A stretch of 45,119 nt of DNA from Raja brachyura (Eukaryota). Below are positions 5,247 to 28,720 of the stretch, one piece after another (position 1 is the first letter of the stretch; every line of letters begins with the position of its first letter). The position numbers and the translations under genes were made by a program. The stretch spans positions 2,188,882 through 2,234,000 of the forward strand of contig OY740804.1 in the NCBI GenBank assembly GCA_963514005.1. Reading direction: 5' to 3'. The notes under the pieces were generated by a model. It did no database searches. It was not told the origin of the DNA and was given only the letters and a program-made list of their open reading frames with translations.

Positions 5247-5552
5247 TGGGGCGCCTGGTTGGCCGCTGGCAGCTGGGATGACGTTGTTCTTGTTAAACGT
5301 TAACGGCTGATGCAATGACATGTTTGGCAGAGGGTGGAGAGGTCACGGCTGACTCCGGCCAATGCTCCGTGTGTGGCAGTGATTGGTTGAAAGTACGGGA
5401 GCGCAGGCAATGAGGGTCAGGAGAAGCCGGGAGTTGGTAAAAAAGTAGTGAGCGATGGCAGGAGATGTCAAGGACAAGACAGGCCCTGTCACCATGTGTG
5501 GAGACACCGGAGCTGGTAACCACCCCTGTGGATCCTTCAAGTGTCTGTGAGT
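5247..5552 (+). promoter_or_regulatory. Putative promoter and non-coding exon 1 of Ig gene copy 1 (TATA mutated)
   Basis: Block shared by all four copies: GTTAAACGTTAAC (5292), TGATGCAA, CCAAT/ATTGG boxes, donors GTAACC (5516) and GTGAGT (5547). The TATAAAA of the other copies reads TAAAAAA here (5438). Confidence 0.55.
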
Positions 5553-5584
5553 GATGGGGGTGGGATTGTCTGTTCACTGTTCCC

Positions 5585-5970
5585 CCAGTTCAGAAGCCTG
5601 ATAGCAGAGGGGAAGAAGCTGTTCCTGAGTCTGGTGATGCGCGCTTTCAAGCTTCTGTACCTTCTGCTAGACAGGACCAGGGAGAAGGAGGAATGACCGG
5701 GGTGGGACAAGTCTTTGATTTTTTTGGTTGTAGATGGAGCCACTGGTGGGGAGTGTGGTCCGTGTGATGGACTGGGCTCCATCCACAACTCTGCAATTTC
5801 TTGTGGTCTTGGGCTCAGAGCTGTTCCCAAACCTAGTTGTGATGCAACCTGACAGTCTGCTCTCCATGGTGCATCTGTAGAAGTTTGTAAGAGACATTAG
5901 AGACTTGCCGTATTTCCTTGGTCTCCAAGGAAGTATATGCATTGGTGTGTCTCCTTGGCTGCCACTTTAA
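5585..5970 (-). mobile_element. Rex1/Babar-like LINE 3' fragment (also 22270-22395, 25060-25445, 40460-40670, 42230-42505)
   Basis: Degenerate RT C-terminus LTNFYRCTMES.LSGCIT.WFGN ... KDLSHPGH ... [26 protein letters not shown]. Confidence 0.75.
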
Positions 5971-6114
5971 TGTTGTTGGTCAATGACAGGTCAAAGCAAC
6001 TTAAAATAAACCAGGCAGGAGCTGAAGAGGCTGCACAGTGACATTGCCCAGTGTGGTGGCAGCAGCTTCAGAGAATGTCATCATGAATCCTACTATTGTT
6101 TTACCCACAGGAGC

Positions 6115-6642
6115 ATGGGACTACAGAGATGGATAGGATTCATGGTCCTTGTGGAAATGGTGTGGCAAGTCTCCGGAACTGGAACAGGTCCGATCTCCAG
6201 AGAATGGGGAGAGGAAGCAAAGTTGCCCGGGTGGAACGCACGGGCTCCTCGGCAGGGCAATGAAGATCGGCTTCCAGAATGCATGGGCAAGCCAGGTTCT
6301 GACAGTGATCAGCCTGTTAAAACTTGATATAATGTGATCATTGCATCTCCGGGTGGTCCTGTAACTCTGTACTGTAAAATATCCAAAGATTACGGTGAAC
6401 TGAGATCTGTTTTGTGGAGTTAAGATGGTGTTTCCATTGCCAGATATAATGATAGGAACGTTACGTATTATCAAGGGTCTGATGTCCATTACAGGTTCGT
6501 GCATGAAAAAGTGCACATGCATCCGGACGCCTCGTTGCTGCTGACACGGACACAAGAGGACGATGAAGCAATATATTCCTGCATTTGGACCACTTCTAGT
6601 CAAGGGAATTGTGAAGTAGAGACCTGGCTGTTAAAGGTGTGA
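6115..6642 (+). pseudogene. Secreted single Ig V-type domain precursor, copy 1 (two in-frame stops)
   Basis: Acceptor TTTTACCCACAG lies just before the ATG. Reading through TGA (6325) and TAA (6421) gives leader...RAPRQ, then VTLYC...VLWS*DG...DASLLLTRTQEDDEAIYSCIWTTSSQGNCEVETWLLKV*. Confidence 0.85.
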
Positions 6643-6689
6643 ATGCTTCCACTGATTCAGCAGGTCTGTCCCAGGATCAGTAGTAAAGT

Positions 6690-25026: not shown

Positions 25027-25539
25027 ATGGGGGTGGGATTGTCTCTGTTCACTGTTCCCCCAGTTCAGAAGCCTGATAGCAGAGGGGAAGAAGCTGTTCC
25101 TGAGTCTGGTGGTGCGTGCTTTCAAGCTTCTGTACCTTCTGCTAGACAGGACCAGGGTGAAGGAGGAATGACCGGGGTGGGACAAGTCTTAGATTTTTTT
25201 GGTTGTAGATGGAGTGACTGGTGGGGAGTGTGGTCCGTGTGATGGACTGGGCTCCATCCACAACTCTCTGCAATTTCTTGTGGTCTTGGGCTTAGAGCTG
25301 TTCCCAAACCAAGCTGTGATGCAACCCGACAGTCTGCTTTCCGTGGTGCATCTGTAGAAGTTTGTAAGAGACATTGGAGACTTGCCGTATTTCCTTGGTC
25401 TCCAAGGAGGTAGATGCATTGGTGTGTCTCCTTGGCTGCCACTTCACATTGCCCAGTGTGGTGGCAGCAACTTCAGAGAATATCATCATGAATCCTACTG
25501 AGTTGCAATAAGGTGACCCATTGTTTTACCCACAGGAAC

Positions 25540-26040
25540 ATGGGACTGCAGAGATGGATAGGATTCATGGTCCTTGTGGAGATGGTGTGGCAAGTCTCCG
25601 GAACTGGAACAGGTCCGATCTCCAGAGAATGGGGAGAGGAAGCAAAGTTGCCCGGGTGGAACGCACGGGCTCCTCGGCAAGTTAACAAACAAAAAACTCC
25701 AGAATGCAGTGTTAAGCCAGATTTGACCAAGATGACGAAGATGACGGCACGCAAGGGTAGTTCTGTTGCGCTACCCTGTGAAATAACCAGAGAGAAGGAT
25801 GGACCCCAGCATTTTGAGGTCACCTGGAGGAAAGGGAAGGTGACACTGGGCGTGTTTACTAAAGGGAAAGGTCCAATCTATCCAGGGGGACCCGACCGCT
25901 GGAGGTTCATGGATCCAAACGTGGTTGATGCCTCGTTGATCGTCACGGGTGTACGCGAGACTGATGCTGGGATGTATTCCTGTACTTGGTCCACTAGCCA
26001 AGGGGAATGTAGACTAAATGTCAAGCTGGCAGTGAAGTGA
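25540..26040 (+). CDS. Intact secreted single Ig V-type domain precursor, copy 3 (166 aa)
   Basis: Hydrophobic signal MGLQRWIGFMVLVEMVWQVSG and pro-segment ending RAPR|Q. Ig motifs G.SV.LPC, VTW, DASL.V.GV...DAGMYSC. Extra Cys before strand A and in strand G. Stop directly after the domain. Confidence 0.85.
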   Translation: MGLQRWIGFMVLVEMVWQVSGTGTGPISREWGEEAKLPGWNARAPRQVNKQKTPECSVKPDLTKMTKMTARKGSSVALPCEITREKDGPQHFEVTWRKGKVTLGVFTKGKGPIYPGGPDRWRFMDPNVVDASLIVTGVRETDAGMYSCTWSTSQGECRLNVKLAVK

Positions 26041-27429
26041 AACCTCCCACTGATTCAGCACAGACCCCTCCAAGTGTCAGGAGCAACAGGCAGTGGCAGG
26101 TCAGCACAAACACAATAACATCCTTCATTATAAACTTGACACACTTAGGCCAACAACAGCATTATATATTGTAGTCACTGAATTCATCATGAGGGGAATA
26201 GAGGGGTGGACACTAAGCATCTTTTACCTGGGGTACGGGAATCAAGAACCAAGGGACATAAATTTAAGGTGAGAGGGGCAAGATTTAATATTAACCTGAG
26301 GGGCAATATTTTCACTCATGGGGTGGTGGGTTTATGGAACTGTCCGGTGGGGCGGGAACTGTAACAATATTTAATACACACTTGCTACAGGGAAAGGTTT
26401 AGGGGGATATGGGGTGAACACAGTGCAATGGGACAGACCCTGCTTGCACCGGTAAATGTACCATTAATGGAAATAAACTCTCTTGAAGACAGCCGGTGGT
26501 GTGAGTGATTCTTTGTGCGCCAGCATTGAAGTTGGGTGTGAACTTTGTGCAACTCTTGCTCACTACGGGCAGCATCGCCGGGTTCTATGAGCTGTGTCCA
26601 TTATTGGTCATGACCACACAGGGACGGAACAACATGTGGAAAATCAGGAGACTGCAGATGTTGCGAACAGGGACAAAAGTAAAGGGGAATGTTTTTCAGG
26701 AACAAAACAGGAACAAAAGTAAAGGCAGATGACACAACAGTAGGCGGGTTTGCAGATAGTGGAGATGGTTGTGAAAAATTGCAGCAGGATCTTGAAATAT
26801 TGGCCAGGTGGGCTGAGGAACGGTTGATGGAATTTAATACAGAGTAATGTGAGGTGCTGTATTTGGGGGTGTCCAACATGTGCAGGACCTACACAGTGAA
26901 TGGCCCGGCTCTGGGGAGTGTTGTAGAGCAGAGGTTTGGAGGGGTATGGACCAAACACAGGCAGGAGAGACTATTGCAGCTGGGACATGTTGACCAGTGT
27001 GGGCAAGTTGGGCTGAAGGGCCTGTTTCCACGCTGTATCACTCTGTGACTACTACACTATGACATTAAATAAATAATGATTATAAAATGAAACTCCACAT
27101 AAATCTCACCTTCTCCTCTGGCTGTATACACAGCACACTCATTGACTGCAGCAGATACAATGAATGTCACACTGGTGGTACCAGGGCACCTCTGGAAAAT
27201 GTTCTTCTCAAGATGTGATTGAGAAGACGGTGTAACATAGAACATGGAACAGTACAGCACAGGAACAGGCCCTTCGGCCCACAATGTCCGTGATGAACAT
27301 GATCACCATGGAAAATTGGTTCTGACTGTCTACCCTATCTGTATCTCATACTTTTATAACTTGTGCAAGAGGCCAATGCAAGGGAGGCACAATGGCGCAG
27401 AGCTAGTGTTGCTGCCTTCCAGCGCTATG

Positions 27430-27735
27430 TGTGGGGCGCCTGGTTGGCCGCTGGCAGCTGGGATGACGTTGTTCTTGTTAAACGTTAACGGCTGATGCAA
27501 GGACACGTTTGGCAGAGGGTGGAGAGGTCACGGCTGACTCTGGCCAATGCTCCGTGGGAGGCAGTGATTGGTTGAAAGTACGTGAGCGCAGGCAATGAGG
27601 GTCAGGAGAAGCCGGGAGTAGGTATAAAAGGGGCGAGCGATGGCAGGAGATGTGAACAAGACCGGCCTCGTCACCCTGTGTGGAGACTCCGGAGCTGGTA
27701 ACCACCCCTGTGGATCCTTCAAGTGTCTGTGAGTG
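27430..27735 (+). promoter_or_regulatory. Putative promoter and exon 1 of Ig copy 4
   Basis: GTTAAACGTTAAC (27477), CCAAT and ATTGG boxes, TATAAAA (27623), conserved donors. Confidence 0.6.
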
Positions 27736-28220
27736 ATGGGAGTGGGATTGTCTCTGTTCACTGTTCCCCCAGTTCAGAAGCCTGATAGCAGAGGGGAAGA
27801 AGCTTTCCTTGAGCCTGGTGTTGCTCGAATGACAGATGTGGGACAAGTGATGGAGTCATACAGCGAGACCTTCGACCCAACTTGCCCGCGCCCACCAACT
27901 TGCCCCATCAAAACTAGACCCACCTGCCTGCTTTTGGCCCTTACCCTTCTAATCCTGCCCTATCAATGTACCTGTCGAACTGTTTTTTAATCATTGTGAT
28001 AGTACCTGCCTCAACTACCTCTTCCGGCAGCTCGTTCCAAACAACCTCCACCCTTTGTGTATAAAAGTCACCCCTCAGTTTCCCATTAAATCTTTCCCCC
28101 CCTCACCTTAAACCGATGTCCTCGGGTTCTCGATTCCCCAACTCTGGGCGGGTTCAGAGAATGTCATCATGAATCCTACTGAGTTGCAATAATGTGACCC
28201 ATTGTTTTACCCACAGGAAC

Positions 28221-28720
28221 ATGGGACTGCAGAGATGGATAGGATTCATGGTCCTTGTGGAGATGGTGTGGCAAGTCTCTGGAATTGCAACAGGTCCGAT
28301 CTCCAGAGAATGGGGAGAGGAGGCAAACTTGCCCGGGTGGAACGCACCTGCTCCTCGGCAAGTCAATGAAGATCCAAATCCACAATGCAGTGTTAACCTC
28401 GCTCCGGACAAGATGAGATGGACGGAGGTGACGGCCAGTAAGGGTGGTTCTGCTCAGCTATCCTGCAAAATGCCCAAAGAAGATGGTGCAGCCGATAAAG
28501 TTGTGGTGCTGTGGACGAAAGGAAAAGACACGATCGCCGTGTTTACTGACAGGAAGGGTGCGCAATATCCAGGGTCAACCGGACGCTGGAAGTTCATGAA
28601 AGCAAACGTGGTTGACACACGGGACGCCTCGTTGGTCCTGGCGAGGCTGGAAAAGGATGATGCTGGGAAATATTCCTGCGCTTGGCTAGTTAATAACGTG
28701 CCTTGTAAACAAAACACCAA
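28221..28720 (+). pseudogene. Ig V-type precursor copy 4, truncated in the last strand
   Basis: Open from the ATG through DAGKYSCAWLVNNVPCKQNTK. Homology then stops a few codons early and the shared 3' flank is missing; the ORF runs on through unrelated repeat sequence to 28892. Confidence 0.8.

What the first reader, a model, noticed from the sequence alone, without database searches (positions are those of the whole stretch)
5547..28720. Ig domains and their introns give conflicting relationships: patchwork exchange between copies
Seen: introns group copies 1+3 (long Rex fragment, ACATTGCCCAGTGTGG) against 2+4 (CR1 fragment, CCCCAACTCTGGGCGGG). Domain cores instead group 1+2 (SKDY, YQG.DV, FVH, SLLLT) against 3+4 (KGK.T..VFT..KG..YPG, RW.FM..NVV). 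Copy 1 also resembles copy 3 at both domain edges (PEC..KP; SQG.C) while its core resembles copy 2. Inference: gene conversion or recombination anchored in the constant leader swaps domain segments, so dead copies might act as sequence donors.
Basis: partly seen in the sequence, partly recalled or inferred. Interest (0 to 1): 0.75.

Follow-up and report, generated by a model that had tools for sequence, protein, structure and literature searches.

The report
Skate Ig genes sharing interchangeable leaders
An undescribed skate family of small secreted antibody-like proteins keeps old, very different binding domains while neighbouring copies keep overwriting each other's promoter, intron and leader, a known type of gene conversion seen here in an unusually sharp form.

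Summary
The intron/domain conflict is real; the proposed domain patchwork is not supported. The four copies belong to a 16-member family of two-exon genes encoding secreted single V-set Ig proteins, interleaved with chitinase genes in a skate. Introns group 1+3 against 2+4; domains group 1+2 against 3+4 and reject the intron grouping (AU p about 3e-8). One exchange at copy 4 explains this. No significant conversion tract lies inside the domain between deep lineages. Instead the 5' module and 3' UTR are homogenised: shared intron repeats differ by 1.5-5%, domain four-fold sites by 26%. Domain lineages have orthologues in Leucoraja, yet leaders carry species-wide markers. This is concerted evolution around a selected divergence island, as in opsins. 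Recent paralogues show 19 non-silent and 0 silent domain changes. A role for dead copies as donors is hinted only for the leader. Expression and function are untested.

The parts
5357..5546 (+). copy 1 promoter (CCAAT-like box 5357, altered TATA 5436-5444) and exon 1, most likely 5' UTR
   Evidence: motifs; exon 1 carries frameshifting indels or lacks the upstream ATG in several copies with open domains
5547..6110 (+). copy 1 intron (GT..AG, 564 nt), long LINE-remnant ('Rex') type; type-specific part 5713-6066
6115..6255 (+). copy 1 leader: predicted signal peptide plus propiece ending RAPRQ (47 codons)
   Evidence: signal and propiece roles inferred from sequence
6256..6642 (+). copy 1 V-set domain, A type, two in-frame stops (6325, 6421): pseudogene
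   Evidence: orthologue-like P0004, P0006 (65-66%)
7219..7703 (+). copy 1 shared 3' block with AATAAA near 7279
   Evidence: 92% to copy 2 over 485 nt
20777..21248 (-). copy 2 shared 3' block with AATAAA
21344..21736 (-). copy 2 V-set domain, A type, open frame
   Evidence: PF07686 E 2.8e-8
21737..21877 (-). copy 2 leader with a stop at codon 21: pseudogene; siblings B2, C2, D2 are open
21882..22436 (-). copy 2 intron (555 nt), CR1-replaced type; insertion 21939-22268; 7-nt deletion near the acceptor
22437..22561 (-). copy 2 promoter and shortened exon 1
24219..24371 (-). chitinase exon remnant upstream of copy 3, also found upstream of the orphan copy 25 Mb away
24785..25019 (+). copy 3 promoter (TATA 24912-24920) and exon 1
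25020..25535 (+). copy 3 intron (516 nt), long LINE-remnant type
25540..25680 (+). copy 3 leader, amino-acid identical to that of copy 1
25681..26040 (+). copy 3 V-set domain, B type, intact: the only unbroken copy in the window
   Evidence: PF07686 E 4.3e-10
26433..26692 (+). copy 3 shared 3' block with AATAAA
27432..27728 (+). copy 4 promoter (CCAAT-like 27542, TATA 27621-27629) and exon 1
27729..28216 (+). copy 4 intron (488 nt), CR1-replaced type (27849-28152) but w3-like at its 3' end; latest switch inferred between 28153 and about 28195
28221..28361 (+). copy 4 leader
28362..28717 (+). copy 4 V-set domain, B type; last four residues, stop and 3' block lost to a LINE fragment, frame runs on to 28892
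   Evidence: PF07686 E 5.3e-8; P0009 87%

Best explanation
A tandem family of secreted single-V-domain proteins evolves by region-specific concerted evolution. Paralogues align through their near-identical promoter, exon 1, intron and leader (and 3' UTR block), and ectopic gene conversion or unequal crossover keeps homogenising these parts within each species. Tracts stop at about codon 47-49, because the ~120-130-codon domain is held apart by diversifying selection and is now too diverged to pair. SHOWN: the conflict, shallow flanks against deep domains, cross-genus domain orthology with species-wide leader markers, excess non-silent change in one recent group. INFERRED: conversion as the physical mechanism, selection as the barrier, secretion, and propiece cleavage at RxxR. 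Most likely function (inferred, about 45%): secreted mucosal or innate binding or decoy proteins with a nectin-D1-like fold; gamete or reproductive recognition about 20%.
For: Shared intron insertion differs by 5-15 of 304-348 nt among E, G, F1, w2, w4 and the long repeat by 12-14 of 282-354 nt between w1 and w3/C3. Domain four-fold sites differ at 124 of 469 pooled over 21 pairs of 7 lineages, leader sites at 22 of 470. The 3' block differs at 2-7 of 105-116 nt. Control: the orphan 25 Mb away differs from w1 at 48 of 254 nt in the same intron repeat and at 5 of 30 domain four-fold sites, so domain silent sites are not faster than neutral flank there. Domain tree pairs skate and Leucoraja types (E+P0005 99, w4+P0009 97); species monophyly is rejected (AU 1.7e-18). 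Leader residue 21 is A in 9 of 9 Leucoraja-like records and G in 14 of 15 cluster copies (the 15th has a stop there). Two exon-1 positions read D and Q in 9 of 9 Leucoraja-like records and G and H in 8 of 8 G000 copies examined. Leader nt 108 G is confined to neighbours w1, w2, w3 (3 of 15 cluster copies). w3 vs B3: 19 non-silent in 274 sites, 0 silent in 83 (p=0.0056); w3 vs C3 p=0.037.
Against: Substitutions in the 5' module alone do not reject the domain tree (AU p=0.35): the module is star-like, and the topological conflict rests on the insertion. The orphan control is uneven: its first 150 intron bases are only about 5% from the cluster, and placing it outside all cluster domains is not rejected (AU p=0.17). 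B3 vs C3 is not significant (p=0.11) and w2-type siblings show no excess. Pair counts are not independent. Leucoraja evidence is protein-level only, from gene models. No listed contig bridges the copy 4 junction. Promoter, leader and 3' block could be partly held by purifying selection.
Confidence: 0.82

Rival explanations
1. One reading: conversion from donors, including dead copies, patches segments within the domain and generates diversity, as in chicken Ig or trypanosome VSG.
For: PHI p=0.042 on the four window copies. B3 looks like a w3/C3 mosaic (p=0.048). Candidate short tracts exist, e.g. C3-w4 with 3 differences in 39 nt and E-G with 0 in 21 nt. Five of 16 copies are broken.
Against: No tract reaches global significance between deep lineages (best p 0.15-0.46). 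PHI on 8 lineages gives p 0.07-0.30. The 1+3 pattern is the rarest (3 of 47 sites). Whole domains stay orthologous across genera. No recombination-signal motif lies by any domain (four loose hits, all about 1.2 kb past the ATG of w2-type copies).
Confidence: 0.1
2. No homogenisation: copies are young and the domain alone mutates about 5-10 times faster, silent sites included (hypermutation, as once proposed for toxin exons).
For: Sharp borders on both sides of the domain; strong non-silent excess in w3-type copies.
Against: Domains predate the split from Leucoraja, while leaders carry species-wide markers. Recent pairs show 0-2 silent domain changes, so silent sites are not hot. Orphan intron and domain silent distances agree. 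It cannot explain the intron/domain four-gamete conflict.
Confidence: 0.04
3. Copy 4 is an assembly chimera made in the near-identical leader.
For: Segmental repeats are 96-99.5% identical; no listed contig spans the junction.
Against: The same join occurs twice (w4 and B4). w4's insertion has private differences (12-15 of 304 nt from the others) and a private deletion. The Leucoraja w4-type protein shares leader R40 with the E- and F-type proteins and T49 with the F types, the lineages that carry the CR1 intron here.
Confidence: 0.04

Closest known systems
Divergence peak under gene conversion: primate LW/MW opsin exon 5, colobine RNase duplicates (review PMC3924837; passages and first part of section 4 read)
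   Same: Introns cluster by species, the selected coding part by orthology; non-coding DNA is less diverged than coding DNA.
   Different: Here the island is a whole ~390-nt domain at 24-50% divergence, in at least seven lineages rather than a pair, and its border falls inside an exon.
Clustered protocadherins, region-limited conversion (Noonan 2004; seen only as a reference, content recalled)
   Same: Tandem family with homogenised and sheltered regions.
   Different: Protocadherins are membrane cadherins with shared constant exons; these are stand-alone secreted Ig genes.
Conserved prepro / hypervariable mature peptide families: defensins, cathelicidins, conotoxins (recalled; listing only)
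   Same: Near-constant signal and propiece in front of a fast-evolving mature part.
   Different: The mature part is a folded V-set Ig domain; leader and domain lie in one exon.
Nectin / PVR D1 V-set domains
   Same: Top Foldseek matches of the model (5b21_A E 5e-10, 23% identity); the Narcine relative is annotated nectin-1-like.
   Different: No C2 domains, transmembrane segment or tail; an extra conserved Cys pair; 19-28% identity is generic V-set likeness.
Chicken Ig / VSG donor-pseudogene diversification; shark IgNAR and UrIg; amphioxus VCBP (UrIg from passages of PMC12227049; the others recalled)
   Same: Variable V-type domains, pseudogenes nearby, secreted forms.
   Different: No single acceptor locus, no constant region, no J motif or recombination signals, no fused chitin-binding domain.

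Membership tests
Concerted evolution with a selected divergence island | Flanks more alike between paralogues than the island's silent sites | tested here: met
   intron 1.5-5%, 3' block 2-7%, domain four-fold sites 26%
Concerted evolution with a selected divergence island | Flanks group by species, island by orthology | tested here: met
   three species-wide markers in exon 1 and leader; domain species-monophyly rejected; protein level only
Concerted evolution with a selected divergence island | Positive selection in the island | tested here: inconclusive
   significant in 2 of 3 w3-type pairs (p 0.006, 0.037, 0.11); not in 7 other sibling pairs; dN about equal to dS between deep lineages
Donor-pseudogene diversification (chicken Ig / VSG type) | Donor tracts inside the variable domain | tested here: not met
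   no globally significant tract between lineages; marginal only among same-type copies
Donor-pseudogene diversification (chicken Ig / VSG type) | One expressed acceptor, promoterless donors | tested here: not met
   15 of 16 copies keep exon 1 with a TATA-like box; 10 of 15 cluster copies have open frame, exon 1 and 3' block
Donor-pseudogene diversification (chicken Ig / VSG type) | Somatic chimeric transcripts | not testable with these tools
   no RNA holder listed
Rearranging antigen receptors (Ig, TCR, IgNAR) | Recombination signals, J motif, constant exons | tested here: not met
   no signal next to a domain; G strand and stop are in the same exon, no FGxG/WGxG
V-set Ig superfamily | B-strand Cys, C-strand Trp, D-x-G-x-Y-x-C, V topology | tested here: met
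   PF07686 above cut-off in copies 2, 3, 4; invariant columns; model strands
Nectins | V-C2-C2 ectodomain, transmembrane segment, tail | tested here: not met
   stop right after the G strand, followed by a shared AATAAA block
VCBP | Two V domains fused to a chitin-binding domain | tested here: not met
   single V with its own stop; CBM14 belongs to the separate chitinase genes

The most novel reading that the evidence does not exclude
Batoids carry a germline repertoire of secreted single-V-domain recognition proteins, co-amplified with gut-type chitinases, in which an interchangeable promoter-intron-leader cassette is passed among copies (broken ones included). This would keep old, selected binding domains co-expressed and could re-wire them, giving an antibody-independent variable secreted Ig system.
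Probability: 0.15. Interest if true: 0.7.

Novelty: new member of a known kind. Interest (0 to 1): 0.42.

Why it matters
The mechanism is known, but this is an unusually clean multi-lineage case: a whole Ig domain stays distinct across genera while both flanks are overwritten, with an unlinked copy as an internal clock. It warns that trees or dates from introns and leaders mislead for such clusters. It also points to an unstudied, apparently batoid-restricted family of secreted variable Ig proteins under diversifying selection, a testable candidate for mucosal defence or reproduction in cartilaginous fish.

Tried and rejected
Expression: no RNA holder listed; this says nothing either way. Junction check: contigs of 4 DNA-like runs from 4 studies cover the w4 domain in pieces, but no listed piece bridges the intron-domain junction (most pieces were not shown). 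Edge-swap claim for copy 1: rejected as chance or old shared state. Substitution-only tree conflict for the 5' module: not significant. Upstream in-frame ATG in exon 1 (used by the Leucoraja models): judged unlikely as the start, since it lies about 10-15 nt behind the TATA box and is frameshifted or lost in O, G, C3, F1 and the w2 types. Distant relatives: three word-index searches and one full profile search gave only Leucoraja, Rhinoraja and one Narcine protein with the leader; the other listed hits were mostly long multi-domain proteins matching the Ig part only, and 6 were looked up by name. ESM Atlas gave generic V-set or unnamed clusters. Synteny: Pfam on 100 of 352 low-copy frames near the cluster found only chitinase and retroelement families. 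Literature: 9 searches, including five gene ids and one accession (0 papers), found no description of the family; subscription journals and supplements were not searched. Earlier findings of this scan: none. No complex prediction was run, as no partner is known.
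Full report
What the locus is. The window lies in a 2.7-Gb genome (G000:C24:2188882-2234000). Its closest proteins are from the skates Leucoraja erinacea and Rhinoraja longicauda, so it is most likely a skate. Three searches of the genome agree on 16 family members: 15 in a cluster at C24:2.195-2.381 Mb and one orphan (O) at C24:27.49 Mb. The cluster is built largely of a ~30-kb segmental repeat (W, B, C, D; 96-99.5% identical) that also carries a GH18 plus CBM14 chitinase gene. 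Each Ig gene has a TATA-like box, a short first exon, one GT-AG intron of 488-645 nt, and a second exon holding a 47-codon leader and one V-set domain that ends in a stop, followed by a shared AATAAA block. In the window only copy 3 is unbroken. Copy 1 has two stops, copy 2 a stop at codon 21, and copy 4 has lost its last four residues and 3' end. Contigs of organisms B and C stop matching at 28717, while a contig of organism A runs through unchanged, so that loss is real and recent.

Checking the observation. The two intron motifs occur exactly where stated. Copies 2 and 4, and E, F1 and G outside the window, share both junctions of one insertion that replaced part of the older repeat kept in copies 1 and 3 and in O; F2 has the insertion but has lost everything upstream of it. 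Domains group 1+2 against 3+4 at 32 of 47 informative sites. Forcing the intron grouping on the domains is rejected for DNA (AU 2.7e-8 and 5.0e-8) and protein (0.001 and 0.002). All four combinations of intron type and domain type exist, so at least one exchange is needed. With all copies in view, E, G, F1 and w2 form a domain clade (81%) and w4 with its sibling B4 is the only misfit. w4 keeps a 7-nt stretch that the other insertion-type introns lack and shares a T with C3/D3, which places the latest switch within about 40 nt after 28153, in the intron end rather than the coding leader. An older acquisition followed by later exchange would fit too. The claim that copy 1 is 3-like at its edges does not survive: the pattern is the rarest (3 of 47), the best tract has global p 0.18, and the SQG motif is present in the corresponding proteins of other skates. 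PHI on these four copies alone was marginal (p=0.042), but not on eight lineages (0.07-0.30).

What is really unusual. The domain is an island of divergence. Between lineages it differs at 24-50% of bases and at 124 of 469 four-fold sites. The neutral-looking repeat remnants in the intron differ by 1.5-5%, the leader at 22 of 470 four-fold sites, and the 3' block at 2-7 of 105-116 nt. The jump comes at codons 46-50. Three results point to homogenised flanks rather than a hot domain. First, domain lineages have counterparts in Leucoraja (E 81%, w4 87%, w3 types 64-73%, w1 66%, against 26-58% between lineages), while leaders and first exons carry species-wide residues across those lineages. Second, the unlinked orphan differs from w1 by 19% in the intron repeat and 17% at domain four-fold sites, and by about 16% in a far flank shared with w3. 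This control is uneven: its first 150 intron bases are only about 5% away, and its nesting inside the A clade is supported by bootstrap (99) but not by the AU test (0.17). Third, one leader variant is confined to the neighbours w1, w2 and w3 and absent from their six segmental siblings, a very recent exchange among three domain types. Against over-reading: substitutions in the 5' module alone do not reject the domain tree (AU 0.35).

Selection and donors. w3 and B3 differ by 19 non-silent and 0 silent domain changes (p=0.0056); w3 vs C3 gives p=0.037 and B3 vs C3 p=0.11; the w2-, w4- and F-type siblings are nearly invariant. Variability is higher in loops than strands (mean entropy 1.78 against 1.33 bits, leader 0.28). 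B3 may be a mosaic of w3-like and C3-like alleles (p=0.048), so exchange inside the domain is plausible between close copies but is not seen between deep lineages. w3 lacks a leader variant shared by B3, C3 and D3 and carries the w1/w2 variant, which suggests it received leader sequence from a now-broken neighbour; this rests on two sites.

The protein. The model of an intact w2-type copy (mean pLDDT 68; leader unmodelled) has a V topology and best matches nectin/PVR D1 domains at 19-28% identity. An extra Cys pair flanking the domain is invariant, also in a distant Narcine protein annotated nectin-1-like; a disulfide is inferred, not measured. The hydrophobic N-terminus suggests a signal peptide, and most skate copies have RxxR before the domain, though copy 4, two Leucoraja proteins and the Narcine one do not. 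Secretion, cleavage and a mucosal binding role are inferences; expression could not be tested.

Comparison and verdict. The pattern matches the divergence peak under gene conversion described for primate opsins and colobine RNases (PMC3924837, passages and first part of section 4 read). It fails the tests for donor-pseudogene diversification, rearranging receptors, nectins and VCBPs. Nine literature searches found no description of the family. Verdict: a real conflict, explained by known concerted evolution of the flanks plus one 5' module exchange; a new and sharp example, in an uncharacterised batoid family. Interest 0.42.

Noticed in passing
window:39535-44893 (-) and G000:C24:2.13-2.43 Mb: Acidic-chitinase-like gene (GH18 + CBM14); at least eight chitinase copies in the 305 kb fetched, four co-duplicated with the Ig genes.
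   Followed up: partly
window:24219-24371 (-) and G000:C24:27482225-27482446: The orphan Ig gene 25 Mb away carries the same chitinase exon remnant upstream as copy 3 (84% flank identity) but has an A-type domain, a further, older flank/domain mismatch.
   Followed up: partly
window:12032-17296 and 33072-37936: Two DIRS-like retroelements (RT plus tyrosine recombinase, PF00078 and PF00589 tested on the first; 69% alike); the first sits inside a decayed LTR-type element at about 10200-12000 and 17300-18400 (DIRS label recalled).
   Followed up: no
G000:C24:2365649-2368862 and 2373359-2376602: F1 and F2 form an inverted pair (96.7%) with identical domains; F2 has lost its promoter and exon 1.
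   Followed up: partly
G000:C24:2261861-2285463 vs 2293009-2316703: Segments C and D are 99.4-99.5% identical over 11-12 kb blocks: a very recent duplication or an uncollapsed haplotype.
   Followed up: no
window:9079-9301 and 22733-22969: Palindromic short repeats (two inverted SINE-like halves), one inside an older LINE fragment.
   Followed up: no
window:25681-26040: Runs X1, X3 and X4 show other letters at several copy 3 domain positions (7 listed for X1), while the copy 4 domain is identical in X1: w3-type domains look polymorphic between individuals or close species.
   Followed up: no
window:32161-32860: Tandem array of about 60-nt units with TC/CA microsatellites, partly copied at 387-475 and 2822-2892.
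   Followed up: no
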